A stretch of 64,000 nt of DNA from Phycisphaerales bacterium (lineage in GTDB: Bacteria; Planctomycetota; Phycisphaerae; Phycisphaerales; UBA1924): positions 47,992 to 111,991 of the forward strand of contig JALHNL010000002.1 in assembly GCA_022843545.1 (NCBI GenBank), in the 5' to 3' direction. A model generated the notes under the pieces. It was not told the origin of the DNA, ran no database searches, and saw only the letters and a program-made list of their open reading frames with translations. The translations under genes and the position numbers were made by a program. Every line of letters begins with the position of its first letter. The stretch's first letter is position 1. Shown in pieces: positions 5,753 to 56,871 of the stretch.

Positions 5753-7941
5753 AGCGTGACCTTCCCTTGAACCGCCTTCTGCAGCATCTCCACCGCCTGG
5801 TGCAGGATCGGGCGGCTGGGCAGCGTGAAGCGGATGTAGACGCGCTGGCCCAGCGCCGCATCCGCAAGCTGCGCCGGATCGACATCCACATAGATCGTGA
5901 ACAGATCGGTGGTCGCGACGCGGTGCGAGCGGTCGTCGGGCATCGTGGCGATCTGCCCGCCGCCGGCGTGGCCCAGCGCCGCGTGCGGGAGGATCCGCTG
6001 CCCCGCGGGGATGGCCCGAAGCCCCGTGGCCTCGATCACCTGGTGCACACGCGACACCAACCGGGCCTGCACGCGGTACTCATCCGGGCTCATCTGGAAC
6101 AGCCAGCCCGAGTCGCCCTGGGGCACGCTCGCCGTGATGCGCCGCTGAGAGAGATCCGCCACCTGGCACACCGGCTCACCCGTGCGCTGGAACGCCCCCA
6201 GGAGGTCTCGCGGATTGGCGCCCACGATGGTCCCGTCGTGCGGCGCTCTCACCACCAGAGCCGCCTCGCGCCGCGCGATGTCGCTGAGCTGCTCCTCCAG
6301 CGCGGCAATCCCGCTCTGCGCCACCGCCGCGCCCGCCGGGTCGTCCTTCGAGAACGCCTCGGCGAGCTTGAGCCTGGCATCAGCGATGGAGGCGATAACG
6401 AACTGCCGCTCCGCGGAGAGTTCCGGGCTCGAGAGCGTGAGGATCGGCTCGTCCTTCTTCACGCTCTGCCCGAGGCGGACATGGACGTCGGAAACGAACC
6501 CGTCGGTGCCCTGGAAGACGCCGGTGATGAGCGGGCTGTCCACCACGCCCACGACGCGCCGGTAATCGGGCACGGGCACCAGCCCGATCAGAGCCGCCCC
6601 GACGGCCGCCAGACCCAGCGTGCCCAGGATCGCTCGGGTGCGATACTCGAGCAGTTGCGGGCTGGTGGCCAGCCAGTGGACGAACTTGCCGATGGGCAGG
6701 ATGAACCACATGGCCGCGGTCCACAGCGCCAGGAAGAGCCCGACGAAGAAGAAGATGCCCAGCACATACAGCGTGATGACGACGAACAGGAAGATGCGGT
6801 AGATCAGCGCCAGCACGCCGTAGGTGATCAGGATCGCCACCTCCCCCGGCTGGTTGCTGGGCGGGCGGGCCTGCTTGATGCGGTAGAAGTAGCGCTGGAA
6901 CAGATGCTGCAGCATCTTGTTGGAGCGCATCATGAGGTTGGGCACCTCGATGAGGTCCGAAAGGATGTAGTACCCGTCGAACCGCATGAGCGGGTTGGCG
7001 TTGAACACCACCGTGCTGATGCCCGAGGTGAGCATGACGTAGTACGAGATCTGCTTGGCGAACGAGCCGTCGGGCGAGGCCAGCCACACCAGCGCCGCGA
7101 TCGAGGCGGCGAACAGCTCGAACATCATGCCGCCCGCGCCCACCGCCACACGCTGCCACTTGTTCGGGAACGACCAGCAACTGGAAGCGTCCACGAAAGG
7201 CGAAGGGATGAGCACCAGCAGCATCGCGCCGAACTCGGGCACCTGCCCGCCGAAGCGGTGGCAGATGACGCCGTGCCCGGTCTCGTGCCAGAGTTTGAGC
7301 AGGATGTAGACCAGGATCATCCAGCCCCAGTTGGAGGGGCTGGTGACCGAGTCAAACTGCCCGACCAGGCGCGGCCACTCGGGGATGATCTGGACGAGCG
7401 CGAAGATCAACAGCCCCAGCCACGCCAGGAAGCCCCAGCGGTTGAGCACCGGCCGCAAGATCGGCTCGATGAAGTTCAGGATCGGCGTGGGGTTGAAGAG
7501 CCGCAGCTTGAAGTACATCAGGCCGATGGCCTGCTGCATCACACGCTTCCTCACGCGCTCACGCCCGCGGGTGAGCAGCTGCTCGGTCTCCGGCGAGGCA
7601 TCAGCCGACAGCAGGTTGCTGTTGTAGAGCTGCCCGAGCAGTTCGATGACCTCGTTCTGCGTGGGGGCCATGTCGCCGAACTTGGAAAGGCTGATCTTCC
7701 AGGCTTCCTCAACGGTGCGCGCGCCGTCGAGCAGCCCGATGAGGTCGTAGGCGATGGGCGAGAGGCGGTAGAACTGGTTGCTGGTCGGGTCGTGCGCGAC
7801 ATGCCAGCGCCGCCCGCGGTAGTGCTGCCGGGTGATCTGCACGTGCGGGCGAAGCCGGGGCTTCATCGCGCGGACACGGTGCCAGAACGGGCTGAAGGTG
7901 GGGCGTTCCATGAGAAAGAGAAGGCACTCGGCAGCGGGCAA
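5749..7941 (-). CDS. M50 (site-2 protease family) intramembrane metalloprotease with PqqD/RRE-like N-terminal module and HlyD-like C-terminal periplasmic module
   Basis: 730-aa ORF (alternative start at 7911, MERPTF). Has HETGH plus NANPLMRFDG, the M50 HExxH and NxxPxxxxDG motifs, and multiple TM helices. N-terminal FYRLSPIAYDLIGLLDGARTVEEAWKISLSKFGDMAPTQNEVIELLGQLYNSNLL resembles PqqD-family peptide-binding domains. The C-terminal approx 270 aa look like a barrel-sandwich plus coiled-coil adaptor. Confidence 0.8.
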   Translation of the reverse strand: MPAAECLLFLMERPTFSPFWHRVRAMKPRLRPHVQITRQHYRGRRWHVAHDPTSNQFYRLSPIAYDLIGLLDGARTVEEAWKISLSKFGDMAPTQNEVIELLGQLYNSNLLSADASPETEQLLTRGRERVRKRVMQQAIGLMYFKLRLFNPTPILNFIEPILRPVLNRWGFLAWLGLLIFALVQIIPEWPRLVGQFDSVTSPSNWGWMILVYILLKLWHETGHGVICHRFGGQVPEFGAMLLVLIPSPFVDASSCWSFPNKWQRVAVGAGGMMFELFAASIAALVWLASPDGSFAKQISYYVMLTSGISTVVFNANPLMRFDGYYILSDLIEVPNLMMRSNKMLQHLFQRYFYRIKQARPPSNQPGEVAILITYGVLALIYRIFLFVVITLYVLGIFFFVGLFLALWTAAMWFILPIGKFVHWLATSPQLLEYRTRAILGTLGLAAVGAALIGLVPVPDYRRVVGVVDSPLITGVFQGTDGFVSDVHVRLGQSVKKDEPILTLSSPELSAERQFVIASIADARLKLAEAFSKDDPAGAAVAQSGIAALEEQLSDIARREAALVVRAPHDGTIVGANPRDLLGAFQRTGEPVCQVADLSQRRITASVPQGDSGWLFQMSPDEYRVQARLVSRVHQVIEATGLRAIPAGQRILPHAALGHAGGGQIATMPDDRSHRVATTDLFTIYVDVDPAQLADAALGQRVYIRFTLPSRPILHQAVEMLQKAVQGKVTL

Positions 7942-7968
7942 TGGGCATCAGGTGAGAGACGCGGGACT

Positions 7969-7989
7969 CGGCCATCGGCCATCGCAGAA
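7969..7989. repeat. Heptamer tandem array CGGCCAT x2 followed by CGCAGAA
   Basis: Plus strand reads cggccatcggccatcgcagaa, 27 nt upstream (in transcript sense) of the M50 ORF start. About 20 of 24 positions match the element at 28812-28835 by my hand comparison. Confidence 0.8.
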
Positions 7990-21256: not shown

Positions 21257-24124
<2,868 letters not shown>

Positions 24125-24127
<3 letters not shown>

Positions 24128-24168
24128 CGAAATGACGAAGTGACGGAGTGACGGAGTGACGAAGTGAA
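24125..24168 (+). repeat. Octamer array TGACGRAG x5-6, starting with the hppA stop codon
   Basis: Reads tgacgaaa tgacgaag tgacggag tgacggag tgacgaag tgaag. TGA recurs every 8 nt and so falls in all three frames. Confidence 0.9.
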
Positions 24169-24176
24169 GATCAAGA

Positions 24177-24205
24177 CCCCGCCCGGGTGACTGGGCGGGG
24201 TTTTT
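24177..24205 (+). terminator. Rho-independent terminator after hppA
   Basis: Stem ccccgccc / gggcgggg followed by ttttt. Confidence 0.7.
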
Positions 24206-24282
24206 CGTTTGTGGAGTGAAGGTGTCGCGAAGCGCTGCGGGGCGGGTGATGGCGTGCTCGTGTTGCTCGCTACTGTTTGCCC

Positions 24283-24749
24283 ATGCGCGTGTGGCGGAAC
24301 ATGAGGTGGCGGACGCGGACGGCTACCGCCCTCGCCGTGTTCGTCTCCATTTCCTATGCCGCGGCGTCTTTAGGCGAAATCGCCTGGAATCGCGCCGACG
24401 ATCGCCTACTTCTGGCGCTCTCTGAGGGTTCCGTCGGAGGCTCCTATATGGACGGGGCACCACGCTGGCCCATCACAGACACGGGCTGGAGTGCGAAGTG
24501 GAGCCGCTTTCCGAATCGATGGTGGTTCTGGTTCGATCGCACGTCATCGTTCCGAGGCGCACCAGTCGTCTACACAGCGTCAATCCCGCTCTGGGTCCCC
24601 AGCGTCATAACCTGGGGCGCCGCGCTCTGGCTGTGGCGGATCGACCGGCGGCGCTGGGCACTTGCCGCGGCTGCGGCTATAGCCTGCGCGGCCTGCGGCT
24701 CGGCGCGGCGTGCCCGGAGTGCGGGCAGATACCCCGGCCCGCTCCATAG
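24283..24749 (+). pseudogene. Zinc-ribbon membrane protein paralog B, apparently frameshifted
   Basis: The frame from ATG 24283 encodes a membrane-like protein (...VVYTASIPLWVPSVITWGAALWLWRIDRRR). The CRGCGYSLRGLRLGAACPECGQIPRPAP* ribbon lies in the adjacent frame (24663-24749). The switch must fall near 24640-24660. There are more A/T-ending codons than in neighbouring genes. Confidence 0.45.
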
Positions 24750-24851
24750 CCGCATTGCGCGTCTGGCAAGTCTGTCGATGATGACGGCTGAGACGAGATC
24801 GAAGAAGGCAGCAAGCCACGCGGCATCGAGGCATCAAGCCCGAACACTCGA

Positions 24852-24899
24852 CCACTCCGCTACTCCGTCACTCCGTCACTCCGTCACTCCGTCACTTCT
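24852..24899 (-). repeat. Octamer array (sense strand AGTGACGG x4-5) immediately 3' of the nuoD stop
   Basis: Plus strand reads ccactccg ctactccg tcactccg tcactccg tcactccg tcacttct. Minus strand reads GAAGTGACGGAGTGACGGAGTGACGGAGTGACGGAGTAGCGG just after the TAG stop (24902-24904). Confidence 0.9.
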
Positions 24900-24901
24900 T
24901 C

Positions 24902-26188
24902 CTACCGGTCCAGTTCCGCCGCCACCACGTTGATCGAGCCGATGATCGCGACCACGTCGCTGACCAGGTGGCCTTCGGTGAGCTTGCTCATCATGCTGTA
25001 GTTGATGAAGCACGGCGGGCGGACCTTGACGCGCCAGGGGCGGGGGCCGCCGTCGGCGACGATGTAGTAGCCCAGTTCGCCGTTGGGGCTCTCGACCGCG
25101 GCGTAGGCCTCGGCGACCGGGGCCTTCCAGCCGCGGTTGCTCATGATGAGCTCGAAGTGCTGGATGAGGCCTTCGATGGAGCCGTAGACGTCCTTCTTGG
25201 GCGGCTTGACGACCTTGCCGTCGGCGAGGGTGTCGACGGGGCCCTTGGGGATGTTGTCGATGAGTTGGCGGACGATGGAGAGCGACTCGCGCATCTCGTG
25301 AGCGCGCACGAGGTAGCGGGCGTAGCAGTCGCCCTCGGTGGCGATGGGGACCTGGAACTTGACGGCGGGCGCGCCCTGGCCGTCCCAGTTGTCGGCGTAG
25401 CAGAGGTACGGGTTGTCCTTGCGCAGGTCGCGGCGCACGCCGCTGGCGCGGGCCATGGGGCCGCTGAGCGACCAGGCGATCGCGTCCTCCTTGGAGATGA
25501 CGCCGATGCCCTGGGTGCGGTCCATGAAGATGCGGTTGCGGAGCAGGAGCCCGTCCATCTCGTCGACGGTCTTGGCGATGTCGTCGACGGCGCGCTTGAC
25601 GAGGCGCTTGAACATCTCCTCGTCGGGCACGTCCTGCATGAGCCCGCCGACGCGGGTCCAGTCGGGGTGGAAGCGCTGGCCGCTGACGTAGTCGCACAGG
25701 TCGTAGATGAGTTCGCGGCTGTTGAAGCCGTAGATGAACGCGGTGAACGCGCCCAGGTCGAGCCCGGCGGCGCCGCAGCAAAGCAGGTGGTTCTGGATGC
25801 GGCCCAGCTCGAACATGATGGTGCGGAGGGCCTTGCAGCGCGGGGTGATGTCGATGTCGAAGAGGTGCTCGACGGCGTGGTGCCAGGCGATGTCGTTGCA
25901 GATGGGCGAGAGGTAGTCCATCCGCGAGACGACGGTGACGTACTGGTTGTAGTCGTGGTGCTCGGCGAGCTTCTCGAAGCCCGAGTGGAGGTAGCCGATG
26001 TGGGGCGTGCAGCGGACGACGCGCTCGCCGTCGAGCTCGAGCACCAGGCGCAGGGTGGTGTGCGTGGCGGGGTGCTGGGGGCCGAAGTTCAGGACCCAGC
26101 GCTCGCCGGTGTCGACGTGCTGCTTGATGTAGTCGATGCGCTCGACGTCAACGTCGAATCCGTCGTGGGGCTTCAGCGTGAAGGCCAT
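24902..26188 (-). CDS. nuoD: NADH-quinone oxidoreductase subunit D
   Basis: Has MAFTLKPHDGFDVDVERIDYIKQHVDTGERWVLNFGPQHPATHTTLRLVLELDGE and ends ...IGSINVVAAELDR. Start ATG 26188 is preceded by GAGGAG. The upstream ORF extension (26189-26368) is repeat-derived. Confidence 0.9.
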   Translation of the reverse strand: MAFTLKPHDGFDVDVERIDYIKQHVDTGERWVLNFGPQHPATHTTLRLVLELDGERVVRCTPHIGYLHSGFEKLAEHHDYNQYVTVVSRMDYLSPICNDIAWHHAVEHLFDIDITPRCKALRTIMFELGRIQNHLLCCGAAGLDLGAFTAFIYGFNSRELIYDLCDYVSGQRFHPDWTRVGGLMQDVPDEEMFKRLVKRAVDDIAKTVDEMDGLLLRNRIFMDRTQGIGVISKEDAIAWSLSGPMARASGVRRDLRKDNPYLCYADNWDGQGAPAVKFQVPIATEGDCYARYLVRAHEMRESLSIVRQLIDNIPKGPVDTLADGKVVKPPKKDVYGSIEGLIQHFELIMSNRGWKAPVAEAYAAVESPNGELGYYIVADGGPRPWRVKVRPPCFINYSMMSKLTEGHLVSDVVAIIGSINVVAAELDR

Positions 26189-26236: not shown

Positions 26237-26306
26237 AGGGGAGTCGGGAGCTGGCCATCGGGAGTCGGCCATCGGCCATCGGCCATCGGCATCCGGCAAT
26301 CGCCGA
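26237..26306. repeat. Heptamer array, about 10 units of CGGNNNT (core CGGCCAT x3)
   Basis: Reads ggggagt cgggagc tggccat cgggagt cggccat cggccat cggccat cggcatc cggcaat cgccgag. Lies in the divergent spacer between nuoD and 26367. Confidence 0.9.
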
Positions 26307-26366
26307 GAAGAGATGCCGTAACGCTCACCAGACTCTGGCCCGTGGCGCGGATCGGTAGAATGAGGC

Positions 26367-27236
26367 ATGGAGGCTCGATCGATGGTGGGTCATCCCGGGC
26401 TGACGGGCCGCCAGGCGGACACCGCCATCGGCCCGATGGGCCTGGGTGAGGTGATCGAGCTGCCGGTGACGTGCCGGCGCTGCGGGTACCGGCTGGAAGG
26501 CCTTCTGGTGTCGGGCCAGTGCCCCGAGTGTGGGCTGAGCGTCCTGACATCGCTGCGTCGCGGTGAACTGAGGTTCTCCACGCCCGGGCATCGGGCTCGG
26601 CTCTCTCGGGCGTGCCTGTTCATTGAGTACTCGCAGTTCGGCGTGTTCCTCGCGGTGCTCTGTCTAGGGCTGGATGGCGCGATCAGAACGGGGCTCATCA
26701 GCGGTCCACAAGGTTGGCTGAGCGTTCTGGCGGCGCTGCTGGCGCTCACGGGGCAGGTGCTGGGGCTGCTGGGATGGTGGCGACTGGCTACGCCCGACCC
26801 CGCCACGGTCGATGTGCGGGCGGATCGGGTCACCCGCGCGCTGATCCGTGGAGTGGTCGTGCTGCAGTCGGTCGGCGTGATCTGGACGGTGGCGAGTTCG
26901 GTGCTGACCGGCGCGGCGCTGGCCACCGAACCCCGCAGCGCCGCCGGGATGGCATCGGCGACCGGATTGAACTTCGCGGTGCTGCTGGGCGTGGCGACGT
27001 GGGTCGCGGGCGTGGTTGTCGGTCTGGTCTGTCTTTCCCGGATCTTGGCCAGCCTGCCCGCGCCGTGGGCCAGCGTGATGGCCTCGGCTTCCGCGGTGGC
27101 GGTTCCCGCTCTGCTGACGGCCATGTTCTTCAACTCGCTGATGGCACTGGCCATCGGATTGCTGCTAGCCCCGCTCGTTCCGGCGATCTTTGCCGATCGG
27201 TTGCGAGTCTTGCTTCGCGGCGTGAAGTCGTCGTGA
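26367..27236 (+). CDS. Zinc-ribbon membrane protein (paralog family C)
   Basis: 289 aa with CRRCGYRLEGLLVSGQCPECG at residues 36-56, then at least 6 hydrophobic helices. Confidence 0.6.
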   Translation: MEARSMVGHPGLTGRQADTAIGPMGLGEVIELPVTCRRCGYRLEGLLVSGQCPECGLSVLTSLRRGELRFSTPGHRARLSRACLFIEYSQFGVFLAVLCLGLDGAIRTGLISGPQGWLSVLAALLALTGQVLGLLGWWRLATPDPATVDVRADRVTRALIRGVVVLQSVGVIWTVASSVLTGAALATEPRSAAGMASATGLNFAVLLGVATWVAGVVVGLVCLSRILASLPAPWASVMASASAVAVPALLTAMFFNSLMALAIGLLLAPLVPAIFADRLRVLLRGVKSS

Positions 27237-27283: not shown

Positions 27284-28795
27284 TCACGGCGCTTGGAACT
27301 CGCGCCACAGATCGCGGTAGGCCTTCTCGCCGTCCTCGATCGCTCGGGCCCACTCTTCGATGACTTTGGCCCGGGCTTTGGCGTCGGGCGAGGGGGCGCC
27401 CGGGCCCTCGGCGGCCCCCCACTGCACGGTGGCGGCGAAGAAGCCCGGGGGCATGGGCTCGTAGAGGTAGGCCTTGGGGATGGCGGAGGCGGCCTGATCG
27501 AGGCGGGCGGCGGGCGAGGTCGGGGCGTTGTCGCCGAAGAGGCCCCAGATGTCGAGCGCGGCTTCGGCGTGGGCGGTCCAGCGCTCGGCGAAGCCCAGCG
27601 TCGTGAGGTAAGCCTCGACCGAGTCCACGCCGCGGAAGTCCTCGCGCAGGGCCAGCAGATGGCCCAGGCGGGCGGGGATCGGCTTGTCGAGGTCGGCGGG
27701 GTCCTTCAGGCCTGACTCCTTGAGGGCCTGCACGTGCCGCTGGGCGTGCGACTCGATCAGCAGGGCCAAGTCCCAGGCTTCTTTCTTGAGTTCGGGCGTG
27801 ACCTCGTGCTCTTCGCCGGGCTTGGCGAGGAAGGCGCAGACGCGGTTCTTGCCGGGCTCGCGCTTGGCTTTGGGGTCGACTTCGAAGCGGCGCAGAATGG
27901 CGCGGGCCATGTGAAAGGCCGGGGGGACGGGAGAGGCCTTGCCGAGCGGGCGCAGCAGGGCTCGCGCGGTGGCCAGGGCCTGGCGCGGGTCGTCGGTCAT
28001 CATCGCGGTGACCCAGTCCACGCAGGGGTTGAGCACGGCGGGGTCGGGGAGCGTGTCGATGCCGGGCAGGCGGCGGAGCATGGCCATGACGTGGCCCTGC
28101 GAGGTGAGGGCGTTGACGGCGTCGAGCGAGAGGGCGTAGGGCGTCTCTTCGTCGGCGGTGCCGTGGGCGAGCACGAGGGGCACGGCCTGCACGCCGCCGG
28201 TCATGGGCATGCCCTCGGCGGTGCCGCTGGCGATGGCGACGACGCCGTCGATGAGTCTGGGGAACGCCCCGGCGAAGAGGACGGCGAACCGCGCGCCCTG
28301 GCGGTAGCCGACGAGGATGATGCGATTGGTGGGGAAGCGGCGCGAGGCTTCGAGGATGAAGTCGCGCATCACGACGGCGTCGGCGTTGTCGAGGCGGAAG
28401 ATCCGCATGGCGTCGTCGGCTTCGGAGGTGCCGTCGACGCACACGACGATGTCGGCGGGACGGAAGGCCCCGGGGGCCAGGCGGGCGTGGCCCCAGCGGT
28501 AGTCGACGCCCAGGCCGTGCAGGACGATGACGAGGTTGCGGGGCTCGTCGGGCTTGAAGCCCTCGGGGAGCGCGAAGGTGTAGCGGAGGGGCGCGACGCG
28601 GGCGCGGACGGTGGAGAGGCCCTTGGTCTCGGCGACGGCGCGGTAGACCACGCCGGGCTTGGCGTTATCGAGGCCCTCAGCGGGGTTGAGTTGCTGGATG
28701 GTCTGCGGATCAGGGAGCGGGGGCTGGGCGGAGGCGGAGGCGGCGGCACCGAGCGCGATGGCGAGAGTCGCGATGAGGGCGGCGAGGGAGGGCAT
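27284..28795 (-). CDS. Secreted alpha/beta-hydrolase-fold (phospholipase/carboxylesterase-like) protein with C-terminal helical domain; nucleophile position is Arg
   Basis: Start ATG 28795 (MPSLAALIATLAIALGAAASASAQ signal). Has LVIVLHGLG, ILVGYRQGARFA (where the family has GFSQGG) and LAHGTADEETP. Confidence 0.6.
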   Translation of the reverse strand: MPSLAALIATLAIALGAAASASAQPPLPDPQTIQQLNPAEGLDNAKPGVVYRAVAETKGLSTVRARVAPLRYTFALPEGFKPDEPRNLVIVLHGLGVDYRWGHARLAPGAFRPADIVVCVDGTSEADDAMRIFRLDNADAVVMRDFILEASRRFPTNRIILVGYRQGARFAVLFAGAFPRLIDGVVAIASGTAEGMPMTGGVQAVPLVLAHGTADEETPYALSLDAVNALTSQGHVMAMLRRLPGIDTLPDPAVLNPCVDWVTAMMTDDPRQALATARALLRPLGKASPVPPAFHMARAILRRFEVDPKAKREPGKNRVCAFLAKPGEEHEVTPELKKEAWDLALLIESHAQRHVQALKESGLKDPADLDKPIPARLGHLLALREDFRGVDSVEAYLTTLGFAERWTAHAEAALDIWGLFGDNAPTSPAARLDQAASAIPKAYLYEPMPPGFFAATVQWGAAEGPGAPSPDAKARAKVIEEWARAIEDGEKAYRDLWREFQAP

Positions 28796-28811: not shown

Positions 28812-28830
28812 CGGCAATCGGCAATCGCAG
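28812..28830. repeat. Heptamer array CGGCAAT x2 followed by CGCAG(AA)
   Basis: Reads cggcaatcggcaatcgcag, 16 nt upstream (transcript sense) of the 28795 start. Related to 7969-7989 and to the end of 26237-26306. Confidence 0.8.
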
Positions 28831-28859
28831 AAGCGTAAACGAGGGATGCCCGGTGGATG

Positions 28860-28884
28860 CTCAGCACTCAGCACTCAGCACTCA
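28860..28884 (-). repeat. Heptamer array (sense strand TGAGTGC x3) starting with the stop codon of 28882..30384
   Basis: Plus strand reads ctcagca ctcagca ctcagca ctca. Sense strand reads TGAGTGCTGAGTGCTGAGTGCTGAG, with TGA every 7 nt, covering all three frames. Confidence 0.9.
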
Positions 28885-30384
28885 CTTCCCCTCGCCCCGC
28901 ACCGCGTGCTGCAGGGCGACAAGGGAGTAGGCGCTGATGAGGATGGGGTTGTTCTCCATCCAGCGGTCGTCGATGGAGCGGAAGGAGCCGTCGGGGTTCT
29001 GCAGGCGGGCGAACTGTTCGATCATGTCGTCGCGCCAGTTGCGGGATTGGGGGACATCGGGGTTGTTGGTCATGGAGGCGATGATGGGCTTGCCCTTGAA
29101 GTCCACGCCGTCGAGGGCCTTGGTCGCCGCCTGGGCCTTGTCTTCAGAGCCGAAGTAGGCGAAGGCGAAGGATCGCGCGGGCTTGATGGGCGGGCCGGGC
29201 CACACGAGGACGGCCTGGGCGTCCTTGAGCGCGTCGAGCGTGCGCAGGTCGGCCTCGCTGGTGCCTTCGGGCATGCCAGCGATCCACACCACGCCGCGGT
29301 ACGGCGCAAAGCGCGTGACCTCGATCGAGTCCAGGCCCGAGGAGTTCAGGGCGCGGGCCATGGCGATCAGGAAGTAGTAGTACCCGTCGGTGCCCATGCC
29401 CGGGTTCTCGGCGAGCGTGTAGTTGCCGCGGATCCAGTCCATCGCGGCGACCACGCGCGGGTCGCTCGGGCTCAGGCCCGCGTAGATGTACGACTTGAAG
29501 CCGATGTAGGTCGTCGAGCCGTACGCGCGGAGCTTGGAGACGTTGCTGCCGTCGTCCATGGACTCCTCGATGGTGCCGGCGAAGGACTGGCCCTTGCCGG
29601 CGGTCTGGTCGTTCTCGCCGGTGGCGTAGATGAAGCCGCCCTGCTTGGAGCCCTTGGCGTAGGGCAGGTCGTTGACGACCGTGCCGTCGGGGGCCTTCTC
29701 CAGCATCTGGCAGCGCTGCAGGAAGACGATGGCGCGCTGGAAGGCGGGGTCGTCGGTGGGCAGGCCCGTGTCGTGCCAGGCCTGGATGGCGAAGGCGAGG
29801 TTGGACAGGTCCGGACGCCCGCGGTTGCCGTAGCCCAGACCGCCGTAGAACGGATGGTCGCGGCTCACGGCGGCGGGGGTTTCGGTGCCGTGCGGGCCCG
29901 CGGCCTTCATGCCCACGGGCGTGGCGGAGCCCCACTGCTGGTTCTTGAGGAAGTCCTGCGCGGGCTTGATCCTGGCCTGCGCCTCGGGCGTGTTCACACG
30001 CGCGAGGGCCGAGAGGGAGATGGCGGTGTTGTACGACGGGAGGGCCGAGTCGTAGATCCCGCCGTCGGGCTGCGCGTGAGAGAGGAGGTAGCGGACGCCC
30101 GCGGCGACGGCGGGGTCCTTCTCATCAACGCCCGGCTGCAAAAGCAGGCCGTTCAGGACCAGGCCGGAGATGGCGGGGTAGTTGGGGATGCCCTTGCCCG
30201 GCGGGGGCACGGCCCAGCCGCCGGAGTCCTTGTCCTGCTGGGCGCGGAGGTAGGCGATGGCCTTGTCGATCATCTCCTCGCCCTGCTTCCGACGCTCGGG
30301 GCTGGGCCCGGCGAACGCGGCCAGCGGGGCGGCGAGGGACAGGACGAAGCAAGCGAGACGGCGGGGGATGGGGAGCATGGGCAA
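28882..30384 (-). CDS. Secreted prenyltransferase/squalene-oxidase-repeat (alpha/alpha toroid-like) protein with inserted RRM-like module
   Basis: 500 aa with a signal peptide MPMLPIPRRLACFVLSLAAPLAAFA. Repeats of the type AIAYLRAQQDKDSGGW, GVRYLLSHAQPDGGI and FARLQNPDGSF. The insert at residues 364-437 has RNP-like VVWIAGMP and RSFAFAYF. Confidence 0.6.
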   Translation of the reverse strand: MPMLPIPRRLACFVLSLAAPLAAFAGPSPERRKQGEEMIDKAIAYLRAQQDKDSGGWAVPPPGKGIPNYPAISGLVLNGLLLQPGVDEKDPAVAAGVRYLLSHAQPDGGIYDSALPSYNTAISLSALARVNTPEAQARIKPAQDFLKNQQWGSATPVGMKAAGPHGTETPAAVSRDHPFYGGLGYGNRGRPDLSNLAFAIQAWHDTGLPTDDPAFQRAIVFLQRCQMLEKAPDGTVVNDLPYAKGSKQGGFIYATGENDQTAGKGQSFAGTIEESMDDGSNVSKLRAYGSTTYIGFKSYIYAGLSPSDPRVVAAMDWIRGNYTLAENPGMGTDGYYYFLIAMARALNSSGLDSIEVTRFAPYRGVVWIAGMPEGTSEADLRTLDALKDAQAVLVWPGPPIKPARSFAFAYFGSEDKAQAATKALDGVDFKGKPIIASMTNNPDVPQSRNWRDDMIEQFARLQNPDGSFRSIDDRWMENNPILISAYSLVALQHAVRGEGK

Positions 30385-36514: not shown

Positions 36515-36549
36515 GGGAGTCTTGAGTCGCGAATCGCGAATCGTGTCTG
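36515..36549. repeat. Heptamer array (NNGARTC x4-5; core GCGAATC x2) in the rplF-rplR spacer
   Basis: Reads gggagtc ttgagtc gcgaatc gcgaatc gtgtctg. Confidence 0.8.
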
Positions 36550-37903: not shown

Positions 37904-37931
37904 TGCCTGTTCTTCGAATGCCTGATGCCTC
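37904..37931. repeat. Heptamer array (ATGCCTG ATGCCTC; TGCC family) abutting the rplE stop
   Basis: Reads tgcctgt tcttcga atgcctg atgcctc, followed by tta (the rplE stop on the minus strand). Confidence 0.7.
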
Positions 37932-40242: not shown

Positions 40243-40281
40243 GATCACTGATCACCGATCATTGATCACGTCTTGGATCAC
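40243..40281 (-). repeat. Heptamer array (sense strand GTGATCN x4-5) starting at the rplP stop codon
   Basis: Plus strand reads gatcact gatcacc gatcatt gatcacg tcttg gatcac. Sense strand reads TGATCCAAGACGTGATCAATGATCGGTGATCAGTGATCC, with TGA every 7 nt. Confidence 0.9.
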
Positions 40282-43437: not shown

Positions 43438-43470
43438 GCCCAGTGCCTGTTGCCCGATGCCTGATGCCTT
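43438..43470. repeat. Heptamer array (plus strand CCNNNTG x4; sense strand GGCATCA GGCATCG GGCAACA GGCACTG) in the rplW-rplB spacer
   Basis: Reads cccagtg cctgttg cccgatg cctgatg ccttc. Confidence 0.8.
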
Positions 43471-55681: not shown

Positions 55682-55751
55682 CGGGGGAGGGTAGAGGTGT
55701 GAGGCCGAAGGATGAAGGATGAGGGCCAGGTTCGTGTGGGCACTCTGCGAA

Positions 55752-55800
55752 TGCCGGGTGCCTGATGCCGAGTGCCCGATGCTTGTTGCCCGTTGCCCCA
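55752..55800. repeat. Heptamer array TGCCNNN x7
   Basis: Reads tgccggg tgcctga tgccgag tgcccga tgcttgt tgcccgt tgcccca. Nearby, 55706-55724 reads gaaggat gaaggat gagggcc. Confidence 0.85.
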
Positions 55801-55815
55801 CGCCTCACCACTCGC

Positions 55816-56871
55816 TCACTCGCTCTTGGTTCCTCTTCCCACGCCCAGCACCCGGCCCAGCCCAGGCGCGGGGGCCATGACGGCGCGGGCGATACGGGCG
55901 GCGTCAACCGCCGAGCCGATCAGCCCGATGAGCAGGAGGATCGCCCCGATGATCATGAGGCCCATGCCGAAGATGAAGCAGAACTCAGCGAGCAGCCCCC
56001 CCACGAAGAGCGTGAGCAGGGTGATGAGGTCGCCCAGAATGAGCAGGGCCACCGCGGCGCACATCGCGAGCATGGTCTGCCGATCCACCCGTCCGGTGCG
56101 GAGGGCCAGCGACCGCGCGACGAGCAGGCGGGCGTTGGGGCGCAGCCCGATCAGAATCCCCAGCACCAGCCCGAAGGCGGTGAGCCGCCAGATCGTGTGC
56201 TCGACGATCGGGGCCACGCCCACCACCGCGCCGGCGCGGGCGGACTCCGCCGCCAGGTCGCCCAGGTGCAGCACGACGAGCCCGAGCGGGACATAGAGCA
56301 CGACCGCGGCGGCCGCCATCAGGCGATGCCGCAGCGAGATGCCTTCGTGAGGCCGCACGAGCATGACCGCGCCCAGGCCTGAGAGCCAGACGCACGCCGC
56401 CACCGCGCGGGACGAGAGCAGCCACTCGGCGGGCACCAGCCCCAGCGTGCCCGCGCCGGCCCAGTCGCGGGCGACCGACGCGCACACGATGGTCATCGCG
56501 AACAGCGCCCCCACCACCCAGACGATGAGCCCCAGCGCCACGCCCCAGCGTGATCGGATGGGCTGCAGTTCCGCCGCGTGCGGGTCCACCACCGCCAGGA
56601 TCGTCGCCCGCACCGCGGTCCCGCACTCCGGGCACACGCCCAGGATCGACAGGCCCTTGAGGTCATAGCGGCAACTGACGCAGGGCAGAGGGCCGGCCAG
56701 CGACCGCTCGATCAGAGCGGCCATCTTCATGGCCTCAGATGCATCGACCGGGCTGTGGTCATCCCCGACCGGGCCCGGCCCCACGGCGTCCGTCATGCCA
56801 TGACGATATCCGAAGCGGAGCGCCGGCGCACGCCGTAGGGCGGTTGCCCAGGTTCCCACGACCTGGCCCAC
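55816..56871 (-). CDS. Zinc-ribbon membrane protein (paralog family D)
   Basis: Has CVSCRYDLKGLSILGVCPECGT followed by at least 7 hydrophobic helices. The true start is probably internal (M26 or M49/M51). Confidence 0.6.
   Translation of the reverse strand: MGQVVGTWATALRRAPALRFGYRHGMTDAVGPGPVGDDHSPVDASEAMKMAALIERSLAGPLPCVSCRYDLKGLSILGVCPECGTAVRATILAVVDPHAAELQPIRSRWGVALGLIVWVVGALFAMTIVCASVARDWAGAGTLGLVPAEWLLSSRAVAACVWLSGLGAVMLVRPHEGISLRHRLMAAAAVVLYVPLGLVVLHLGDLAAESARAGAVVGVAPIVEHTIWRLTAFGLVLGILIGLRPNARLLVARSLALRTGRVDRQTMLAMCAAVALLILGDLITLLTLFVGGLLAEFCFIFGMGLMIIGAILLLIGLIGSAVDAARIARAVMAPAPGLGRVLGVGRGTKSE

What the first reader, a model, noticed from the sequence alone, without database searches (positions are those of the whole stretch)
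26237..26306. Seventy-nucleotide heptamer array (CGGNNNT x10) and a recurring CGGC(C/A)ATCGGC(C/A)ATCGCAGAA element upstream of start codons
The nuoD / 26367 divergent spacer contains ten consecutive 7-nt units with a core of CGGCCAT x3, ending CGGCAATCGCCGAGAAG. Closely related elements, about 20 of 24 positions identical by hand comparison, lie at 7969-7989 (cggccatcggccatcgcagaa) and 28812-28830 (cggcaatcggcaatcgcag). All three lie 16-50 nt upstream of minus-strand start codons (7941, 28795, 26188) in the same orientation. Related TGCC/GGCA heptads occur at 55752-55800 (seven units, opposite orientation relative to the flanking genes), 43438-43470 and 37904-37931. GAATC heptads occur at 36515-36549. 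Seven nt is not a helical repeat of DNA, and the arrays sit in transcribed leaders. They could be translation-initiation enhancers in a genome with weak SD usage, protein-binding arrays, or slippage-prone tracts that tune expression.
Basis: seen in the sequence. Interest (0 to 1): 0.62.

Follow-up and report, generated by a model that had tools for sequence, protein, structure and literature searches.

The report
Polar heptamer repeat arrays between genes
The 70-base tract upstream of nuoD is a real run of ten 7-base repeats, one of about 200 such arrays between the genes of this Phycisphaerales genome; this repeat class is already described in other bacteria, its function is unproven, and nothing found here gives the tract a role specific to nuoD.

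Summary
Ten heptads in register lie at 26238-26307, one base off the reported start. The CGGCMATCGGCMATCGCAGAA element has 2 exact and 5 near copies, all intergenic.

The tract is not special to nuoD. The 3.4-Mb genome has 139 heptamer and 59-61 octamer arrays of at least 3 copies in intergenic DNA. Shuffles give 2.8 and 3.7.

The arrays sit close to gene ends with mirror polarity. In 125 of 150 skewed arrays the 5' end of the G-rich strand is the end nearer a gene. Within 20 nt of a gene end the counts are 71:10 G-rich on sense after stops and 1:16 before starts.

The nearest genus has the same rule (20:0 and 1:9) with different units. Array positions are mostly not shared between orthologues.

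Rehm et al. (2015) published this rule for Xanthomonas and Nostoc, and this scan has noted it in many other genomes. I file it as a new member of a known kind.

Best reading (0.55): slippage-made, copy-spread repeats whose orientation is filtered at the RNA level, with no role specific to nuoD.

Extra: 9 of 10 four-helix-bundle (PF05635) genes here and in the nearest genus lie between matching inverted arrays.

Copy-number variation could not be tested.

The parts
26238..26307 (.). Ten heptads in register (core CGGCCAT x3, then CGGCATC CGGCAAT CGCCGAG). They lie in the middle of the divergent spacer between nuoD (-) and ORF 26367 (+). G/C skew is near zero. No inverted partner lies within 1 kb.
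7969..7989 (.). CGGCCATCGGCCATCGCAGAA, a copy of the recurring 21-nt element, 58 nt upstream of ATG 7911 of a minus-strand gene.
28812..28832 (.). CGGCAATCGGCAATCGCAGAA, a copy of the recurring element, 17 nt upstream of the start at 28795 (-).
7923..7947 (.). GGCA heptads (GGCACTC GGCAGCG GGCAATG GGCA), 11 nt from start 7911. TGCC is on the sense strand.
28860..28884 (-). (TGCTGAG)3.6 on the sense strand. It starts inside the stop codon of gene 28882-30378 (-).
24121..24167 (+). (GAAGTGAC)5.9. It overlaps the TGA of the H+-pyrophosphatase gene and forms the G-rich arm of a matched inverted pair.
24853..24896 (-). (ACGGAGTG)5.5 on the nuoD sense strand, 5 nt after the nuoD stop. On the + strand it is the C-rich arm of the same pair.
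43444..43469 (-). (TCAGGCA)3.7 on the sense strand, 8 nt after a stop inside the ribosomal-protein operon.
55748..55798 (-). GGCA heptads on the sense strand, 39 nt after the stop of gene 55816-56796 (-).
36527..36543 (.). (TCGCGAA)2.4, a short array with a palindromic core in an operon spacer.
40243..40269 (-). (AGTGATC)3.9 on the sense strand. It fills the 29-nt spacer after the stop at 40278.
24902..26188 (-). nuoD (Complex1_49kDa), the left flank of the spacer. GAGGAG lies 8 nt before its ATG.
26367..27236 (+). Hypothetical membrane protein with a CxxCGY...CPECG zinc ribbon, the right flank of the spacer.

Best explanation
The tract is a long simple-sequence repeat of the heptamer/octamer kind, one of about 200 in this genome.

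Shown:
- Such arrays are about 50-fold (period 7) and 16-fold (period 8) over chance.
- They are largely confined to DNA between genes.
- They are typically 4-5 units long (median 32 nt).
- They belong to a few recurring unit families.
- They sit close to gene ends, with the G-rich strand reading 5' to 3' away from the nearest gene.

Inferred origin:
- Replication slippage of 7-8-nt units makes and resizes them.
- Short stereotyped arrays are also copied between spacers.
- Frameshifts remove them from coding DNA.

Inferred cause of the polarity: selection on the transcribed RNA filters orientation.
- The C-rich reading in front of a start codon is almost free of structure (-0.06 kcal/nt), and in the major skewed families it lacks start codons.
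- The G-rich reading is more structured (-0.23 kcal/nt), often carries TGA in all frames, and is tolerated only behind stop codons.

The nuoD tract is a nearly unskewed member in the middle of its spacer. It most likely has no function specific to nuoD. At most, a change in copy number would alter the spacing in the divergent promoter and leader region.
For: Enrichment and restriction to intergenic DNA.

Polarity:
- 71:10 after stops against 1:16 before starts within 20 nt (Fisher 8e-11).
- 125 of 150, true in all four spacer types.
- GGCA heptads 20:2 against 1:11.

Replication in the nearest genus, G017, with other units: 20:0 against 1:9, p 7e-7.

Turnover:
- Orthologue test: 0 of 13 arrays at 5' ends shared; 5 of 25 at 3' ends against 22 of 301.
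- Paralogues with the same C-terminus carry different arrays or none.
- Arrays show blocks of variant units in series.

Copying: the same variant unit recurs at the same place in copies at many loci.

RNA asymmetry.

Literature:
- The same ORF-orientation-independent rule, a shortage in divergent spacers and a preference for about 4 units are published for Xanthomonas and Nostoc (PMC4692102).
- Heptamer excess attributed to polymerase slippage: Mrazek 2007, as summarised in PMC4679880.
Against: - The RNA filter needs two separate mirror-image rules. There is no clear reason why the C-rich reading should be harmful behind the last gene of a convergent pair.
- PF05635 genes break the rule at both ends. 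They have G-rich arrays in front of their starts and C-rich arrays behind their stops.
- One family (AGGCATCG) prefers the opposite orientation after stops, 2:8.
- CGGCMAT units carry ATG or TTG on the sense strand of the genes they precede.
- No transcript, read or strain data were available, so slippage and transcription are inferred.
- Gene calls are my own crude codon-model calls. Starts are approximate and some small genes are missed.
Confidence: 0.55

Rival explanations
1. The arrays are arms, single arms or decayed arms of a cassette resembling a 23S rRNA intervening sequence (IVS), built around PF05635 four-helix-bundle genes. Two inverted arrays bracket a cargo. They form a stem that RNase III can cut in the transcript, or a hairpin used for insertion. 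The nuoD tract would be an orphan arm.
For: - 4 of 5 PF05635 genes here and 5 of 5 in G017 lie between a G-rich array and its reverse complement. Each uses a different major unit family.
- There are 16 adjacent inverted same-family pairs against 3.8 +/- 1.9 expected. All have the G-rich arm first.
- The Coxiella IVS has AGAAGA followed by (GACAGAT)2-3 in front of its S23p ORF inside an RNase III-cut stem (PMC4990558). The GAAGAAG header before arrays here is similar.
Against: - Most arrays have no matching partner. The target has none within 1 kb.
- The two ends of a spacer are no more complementary to each other than to the ends of other spacers.
- G065 has 14 PF05635 hits, yet no 7/8-nt array was seen in the 200 kb sampled from it.
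- No transposase-like enzyme (RAYT or reverse transcriptase), target duplication or empty/filled site pair was found.
Confidence: 0.2
2. Leader-side arrays act as translation-initiation enhancers or ribosome standby sites in a genome with weak Shine-Dalgarno use.
For: - An SD-like motif precedes only 30% of starts.
- C-rich arrays lie 3-30 nt before starts and are almost unstructured as RNA.
Against: - Two thirds of arrays follow stop codons.
- No leader array is shared with the orthologue in G017, 0 of 13.
- nuoD has its own GAGGAG, and the tract lies 50-119 nt upstream and reads AUGGCCG on its sense strand.
- Genes with arrays upstream are not markedly poorer in SD motifs, 22% against 30%.
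Confidence: 0.08
3. The arrays are binding platforms for an oligomeric nucleic-acid-binding protein. Each subunit would read one 7-8-nt unit, as HutP or TRAP read spaced triplets. Candidates include the pentameric PF05635 protein, S1, Csp or Rho.
For: - The GGCA heptads keep a conserved 4-nt core with 3 variable bases.
- The typical length is 4-5 units.
- The S23p homologue of Xanthomonas is a homopentamer (cited in PMC4990558).
Against: - Dozens of unrelated cores are used in one genome, and the dominant units differ between genera. One sequence-specific factor is therefore unlikely.
- No binding data exist.
Confidence: 0.1
4. The arrays are contingency loci. Changes in copy number switch or tune expression of the flanking genes (phase variation).
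For: - The unit length is prone to slippage.
- The heptamer copy number differs between Coxiella strains (PMC4990558).
Against: - The arrays flank housekeeping genes of every class, including ribosomal-protein genes and nuoD.
- Most lie behind stop codons, where length has no evident effect.
- Rehm et al. found no link to surface or adaptation genes.
Confidence: 0.05

Closest known systems
GGGAATC (Xanthomonas) and GGGGA(C/T)T (Nostoc PCC 7120) heptamer repeats, Rehm et al. 2015 (PMC4692102)
   Same: - Intergenic heptamer arrays, about 180 per genome, with a preference for about 4 units.
- They lie within 0-50 bp of ORFs or overlap stop codons.
- The G-rich strand is on the coding strand downstream of ORFs and on the non-coding strand upstream, whatever the ORF orientation.
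- They are rare between divergent genes.
- Length and sequence turn over between relatives.
   Different: - Here there are dozens of unit families rather than one.
- Most lack GGG runs, so a G-quadruplex cannot explain them.
- Octamers are also abundant.
- The host is a Planctomycetota lineage.
Long simple-sequence repeats with 5-11-nt units, heptanucleotides predominating (Mrazek et al. 2007, as summarised in PMC4679880)
   Same: - A statistical excess of long tandem arrays with non-triplet periods in non-coding DNA of free-living bacteria.
- Polymerase slippage proposed as the origin.
   Different: That survey did not describe polarity or any link to PF05635 genes. No Phycisphaerae report was found in the searchable library.
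TAACTGA direct repeats of marine Beggiatoaceae, cyanobacteria and some Bacteroidetes (MacGregor 2015, PMC4679880)
   Same: - Intergenic heptamer arrays, also found inside ribosomal-protein operons.
- The unit carries stop codons.
- A regulatory role has been proposed but not shown.
   Different: - That is a single unit, mostly within a few nucleotides upstream of start codons.
- Here most arrays follow stop codons and the units are GC-rich.
23S rRNA intervening sequences carrying an S23p/PF05635 ORF (Coxiella burnetii, PMC4990558)
   Same: - A purine header (AGAAGA) followed by tandem heptamers in the 5' arm.
- An inverted-repeat stem around a four-helix-bundle gene.
- Heptamer copy number varies between strains.
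   Different: - That element sits in rRNA helix 45 and is cut out by RNase III.
- Here the armed genes sit between, or in frame within, protein-coding genes.
- The target tract has neither a partner array nor a cargo gene.
Geobacter metallireducens multicopy elements: GGGACCG x4 at 49 sites, and paired sites on opposite strands of 3 tandem TCTCCGTS[Y] units or 5 MTYCTGA units (PMC2700814)
   Same: Stereotyped arrays of 3-5 units of 7-9 nt, dispersed over the genome, often as inverted pairs at a variable distance.
   Different: - They were annotated as putative binding sites for global regulators.
- Some lie within genes.
- No polarity analysis was done.

Membership tests
Heptamer/octamer long simple-sequence repeats with mirror polarity (Mrazek 2007; Rehm 2015) | Tandem array of 5-11-nt units, longer than chance allows | tested here: met
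   TRF scores 55-56 for the target. Genome-wide, 139 against 2.8 (period 7) and 59 against 3.7 (period 8) in shuffles.
Heptamer/octamer long simple-sequence repeats with mirror polarity (Mrazek 2007; Rehm 2015) | Confined to non-coding DNA | tested here: met
   Period 7: 139 intergenic against 35 'coding'. Period 8: 61 against 23. This holds although 85% of the genome is called coding.
Heptamer/octamer long simple-sequence repeats with mirror polarity (Mrazek 2007; Rehm 2015) | 5' end of the G-rich strand abuts an ORF whatever the ORF's orientation | tested here: met
   Genome-wide, 125 of 150. For the target itself the test is inconclusive: skew is 0.03 and the tract lies mid-spacer, 49 and 59 nt from the two starts.
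Heptamer/octamer long simple-sequence repeats with mirror polarity (Mrazek 2007; Rehm 2015) | Rare between divergent genes, with a preference for about 4 units | tested here: met
   Density is 0.26 per kb in divergent, 0.61 in co-directional and 0.87 in convergent spacers. Median copy number is 4.4 and 4.2.
G-quadruplex-forming heptamers (Rehm 2015 subset) | Four or more GGG runs spaced so as to fold a quadruplex | tested here: not met
   CGGCCAT and CGGCAAT units have no G3 run. Most major families (CGTGGTG, AGTGATC, TGCTGAG) have none either.
TAACTGA repeats (MacGregor 2015) | Unit TAACTGA, placed mostly directly upstream of start codons | tested here: not met
   The unit is absent from the family list. 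133 of 200 arrays lie nearest a stop codon.
REP/BIME elements | Imperfect palindromic unit of 20-40 nt plus a RAYT (Y1 transposase) gene in the genome | tested here: not met
   No PF01797 hit in the 92.6%-complete assembly. The arrays are direct repeats, and the target RNA folds no better than shuffles (z -0.4 to -1.0).
IVS-like PF05635 cassette arm | A matching inverted array nearby, with or without a four-helix-bundle gene in between | tested here: not met
   No inverted partner of the target within 1.2 kb. The feature is met elsewhere: 16 pairs genome-wide, and 4 of 5 PF05635 genes.
Phase-variable contingency SSR | Copy-number polymorphism within populations that alters expression | not testable with these tools
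No same-genus genome or strain contig was found.
Known RNA family (Rfam) | Match at the gathering score | tested here: not met
   No match in the whole window.

The most novel reading that the evidence does not exclude
The heptamer and octamer arrays of this and similar genomes are not free-standing microsatellites. They would be the arms, single arms and worn-down arms of a widespread cassette system that lacks a transposase and resembles 23S rRNA intervening sequences. Its cargo is the PF05635 four-helix-bundle gene, and its inverted arrays direct insertion or RNase III processing. The mirror polarity rule would then be the chirality of the cassette (G-rich arm first), not two separate RNA-level constraints. 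The pentameric protein may read about five units.
Probability: 0.2. Interest if true: 0.7.

Novelty: new member of a known kind. Interest (0 to 1): 0.3.

Why it matters
For the tract itself, little is at stake. It is an ordinary member of a repeat class known since 2007-2015, and it should not be annotated as a nuoD regulator.

For the class, this genome adds two useful points.

1. The mirror polarity published for G-quadruplex-type heptamers holds just as strictly for many unit families that cannot form quadruplexes. It also holds in a second genus with different units. The rule therefore does not depend on quadruplexes or on a conserved sequence.

2. The same unit families form the inverted arms around nearly all PF05635 four-helix-bundle genes in both genomes. 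Two of these armed genes are inserted in frame inside DnaE-type polymerase genes. This ties an unexplained repeat class to an unexplained protein family and gives a testable handle on both.

Tried and rejected
- Spacer-closing hairpin. The two ends of a spacer are no more complementary to each other than to the ends of other spacers. The target spacer folds like its shuffles.
- Arrays as part of intrinsic terminators. Only 12 of 68 after-stop arrays have a hairpin plus T-run within 90 nt.
- Directional growth, such as telomere-like 3' extension from gene ends. There is no gradient of unit decay along arrays, 0.46 against 0.54 mismatches per unit, p 0.52. No reverse transcriptase gene was found.
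- General base composition as the cause of polarity. Spacers without arrays show only a mild C excess before starts and none after stops.
- Back-up stop codons as the sole cause. TGA-bearing families are strictly polar, but the stop-free CGTGGTG family is also polar, 16:5.
- REP/RAYT elements and known RNA families. Neither fits.
- Conservation at orthologous genes. It is weak at 3' ends (p 0.044) and absent at 5' ends.
- Simple co-occurrence of PF05635 genes with arrays across genomes. G065 has 14 hits, yet no arrays were seen in the 200 kb sampled from it.
- Strain-level copy-number comparison. This was not possible.

Full report
**1. What is there**

The window is C2:47992-111991 of a 3.42-Mb assembly of 149 contigs with 68.7% G+C. 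nuoD relatives place it in Phycisphaerales. The best match has 84% protein identity, and every relative held belongs to another genus.

The spacer between nuoD (24902-26188, minus strand) and ORF 26367-27236 (plus strand) holds ten heptads in one register at 26238-26307: GGGGAGT CGGGAGC TGGCCAT CGGGAGT CGGCCAT x3 CGGCATC CGGCAAT CGCCGAG. TRF scores it 56 at period 7 (x7.1) and 55 at period 14 (x4.2).

The element CGGCMATCGGCMATCGCAGAA is exact at 7969-7989 and 28812-28832. It has five further copies with at most 2 mismatches, all intergenic. The flanks of these copies show the same neighbours in the same order: G-rich arrays to the left and CTCAGCA or AGGCATCG arrays to the right. Whole stretches of spacer are therefore related, not only the repeat unit.

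**2. It is a genome-wide feature**

I called genes with a simple codon log-likelihood model. This gave 2644 genes covering 84.5% of the genome. The calls are crude: starts are approximate and some small genes are missed.

In the remaining 523 kb, TRF finds 139 period-7 and 59 period-8 arrays of at least 3 copies. Ten dinucleotide-preserving shuffles give 2.8 and 3.7. Periods 4, 5, 10 and 11 are only 2-3 times above shuffles. Plain autocorrelation shows extra peaks at lags 7 and 14.

The median array has 4.4 units and is 32 nt long. A few unit families recur:
- CGTGGTG: 30 arrays
- AGTGATC: 22
- TGCTGAG: 18
- GGAGTGAC: 14
- AGGCATCG: 10
- GGCA-N3 heptads: 34 intergenic loci

Rfam has no match in the window.

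**3. Position and polarity**

Two thirds of the arrays (133 of 200) lie nearest a stop codon. Of these, 95 are within 20 nt and 20 overlap the stop.

Within 20 nt of a gene end the strand counts are as follows (Fisher 8e-11):

| Position | G-rich on sense | C-rich on sense |
|---|---|---|
| After stops | 71 | 10 |
| Before starts | 1 | 16 |

Without reference to gene strand, 125 of 150 skewed arrays have the 5' end of their G-rich strand nearer an ORF. The median distance is 16.5 nt on that side against 101 nt on the other. This holds in ++, --, +- and -+ spacers.

Array density falls from convergent (0.87 per kb) through co-directional (0.61) to divergent spacers (0.26).

GGCA heptads obey the same rule: 20:2 after stops and 1:11 before starts.

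Many after-stop arrays are preceded by a purine header such as GGGGAAGAAG.

**4. Relatives**

The results for sampled relatives are as follows:

| Genome | Relation | Sample | Arrays of period 7/8 |
|---|---|---|---|
| G017 | nearest genus | 1 Mb | 56 in 121 kb of spacer |
| G013 | same family | 200 kb | 8 |
| G006 | same family | 200 kb | 4 |
| G027 | another family of the order | 200 kb | none |
| G065, G074 | more distant Planctomycetota | 200 kb each | none |

- In G017 the polarity is the same, 20:0 against 1:9 (p 7e-7).
- Its dominant units are different: AGGGCCG, GCGGGAA, GAAGTGGC.
- One 32-nt copy, AGGGCCGAGGGGTTAGGGCCGAGGGCCGAGGG, recurs at many loci with the same variant unit in second place. 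That points to copying rather than independent slippage.

Among 326 reciprocal-best gene pairs between G000 and G017:
- None of 13 leader-side arrays is matched in the orthologue.
- 5 of 25 trailer-side arrays are matched, against 22 of 301 for genes without an array (p 0.044).

In the nuoD loci of 80 relatives, three have an array upstream of nuoD.

Ten paralogues in this genome share the same C-terminus. They carry different arrays after the stop, or none.

**5. Mechanism**

Tests that failed:
- A hairpin that closes each spacer.
- A link to intrinsic terminators, 12 of 68.
- A polar gradient of unit decay.
- REP/RAYT elements or reverse transcription.

One physical asymmetry does exist. As RNA, the C-rich reading is almost free of structure (-0.06 kcal/nt). 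The G-rich reading folds at -0.23 kcal/nt and is more stable than its shuffles. In the major skewed families the C-rich reading also lacks ATG, GTG and TTG, while most G-rich units carry GTG and TGA.

SD-like motifs precede only 30% of called starts, and position -1 is C in 61%.

My best reading has three parts:
1. Slippage, plus copying of short arrays, creates the repeats.
2. Frameshifts keep them out of genes.
3. Orientation is filtered by what the RNA does at gene ends.

This reading has weak points. It needs two mirrored rules, and the rule behind stop codons lacks a clear cost. AGGCATCG prefers the opposite orientation. CGGCMAT units carry AUG or UUG on the sense strand of the genes they precede.

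For the nuoD tract itself, nothing indicates a specific role:
- Skew is 0.03.
- It has no inverted partner.
- It folds no better than chance.
- nuoD has its own GAGGAG 8 nt before the ATG.

**6. Link to PF05635 genes**

The lead came from earlier notes of this scan. I tested it here.

- The genome has five PF05635 (23S_rRNA_IVP/S23p) genes. Four lie between a G-rich array on their 5' side and its reverse complement on their 3' side. Each uses a different major family.
- All five PF05635 genes of G017 are armed in the same way.
- Genome-wide there are 16 adjacent inverted same-family pairs against 3.8 +/- 1.9 expected. All have the G-rich arm first. Three hold a PF05635 gene.
- Relative to these genes the polarity rule is inverted. 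A single chirality of the whole unit (G-rich arm first) explains this more simply than RNA filters do.
- The Coxiella 23S intervening sequence has the same layout in its 5' arm: AGAAGA followed by (GACAGAT)2-3, with strain variation in copy number and RNase III cutting the stem (PMC4990558).

Evidence against a general link:
- Most arrays are unpaired.
- G065 has 14 PF05635 hits but no arrays in the sample.
- No movement, enzyme or target duplication was seen.

**7. Comparison with the literature**

- Rehm et al. (PMC4692102) describe the same layout for Xanthomonas and Nostoc. They note closeness to the 5' neighbouring ORF irrespective of its orientation, overlap with stop codons, a shortage in divergent spacers, about 4 units, and turnover between relatives. 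They found no function.
- Mrazek et al. (2007, as summarised in PMC4679880) reported the heptamer excess and proposed slippage.
- MacGregor (PMC4679880) describes TAACTGA repeats.
- Aklujkar et al. (PMC2700814) list dispersed and paired arrays of 3-5 units in Geobacter.
- I found no paper on Phycisphaerae.
- This scan has noted the same rule in many other genomes, and on this window for the octamers.

**Verdict**

This is a new member of a known kind. No strain-level sequence was found.

Noticed in passing
window 24121-24896: The octamer arrays after the H+-PPase and nuoD stops form a matched inverted pair, (GAAGTGAC)n and (CACTCCGT)n. They enclose an intrinsic terminator (24173-24204) and a lower-GC small gene (about 24301-24749, +). 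That gene encodes a CxxCGYxLxGL...CPECG zinc-ribbon membrane protein and is a paralogue of ORF 26367-27236. My gene caller missed it.
   Followed up: partly
genome contig C11:3-3206 (-), outside the window: A DnaE2/ImuC-like polymerase reading frame stays open for 1068 aa straight through an inserted PF05635 four-helix-bundle cassette with GGTGKCGA arms. The insert lies between the MKVDCLGL and VFQIES motifs. The chance of about 210 codons staying open at this G+C is about 1% (my estimate).
   Followed up: partly
L197 (G017:C19:42797-46105): In the nearest genus, the dnaE frame stays open over the whole 3.3-kb locus (1102 aa) through a PF05635 cassette with GAAGTGGC arms. The insert is at the equivalent site, between KMDFLGL and VFQFES. 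This arm variant lacks the TGA of the GAAGTGAC unit.
   Followed up: partly
L194 (G017:C8:123622-126936): A PF05635 cassette with (GAGGGCC)n and (GGCCCTT)n arms is wedged between what look like accB and accC. These are the end of a biotin carboxyl carrier protein and the MFNRILIANRGEIA start of a biotin carboxylase.
   Followed up: no
whole genome (starts as called): Start codons have an unusual context. Position -1 is C in 61% and position -2 in 48%. An SD-like motif lies in -18..-4 of only 30% of genes, against 12% for random 20-mers. Many starts read CTCCCCC-ATG.
   Followed up: partly
genome contigs C48, C65, C1, C19, C64: About ten paralogous genes end in the same C-terminal domain (...ADITDIGDTGAGPDG.LTVDDIIAFVNAFGDGC*). 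Only three of them have arrays after the stop, and the arrays differ from one another.
   Followed up: partly
whole genome: Other multicopy 22-mers turned up. A CRISPR-like repeat (GTCGCCCGCTCACGGGCGGGCGTGGATTGAAAC) occurs at 13-15 places. A palindromic CACAGGCGGGACGCCTGTGCCA occurs at 12 loci.
   Followed up: no
G017 sample (L137, L138, L140, L141): A stereotyped 32-nt element, AGGGCCGAGGGGTTAGGGCCGAGGGCCGAGGG, sits 0-7 nt after many stop codons, with the same variant second unit each time. This shows that short arrays are copied between loci.
   Followed up: partly
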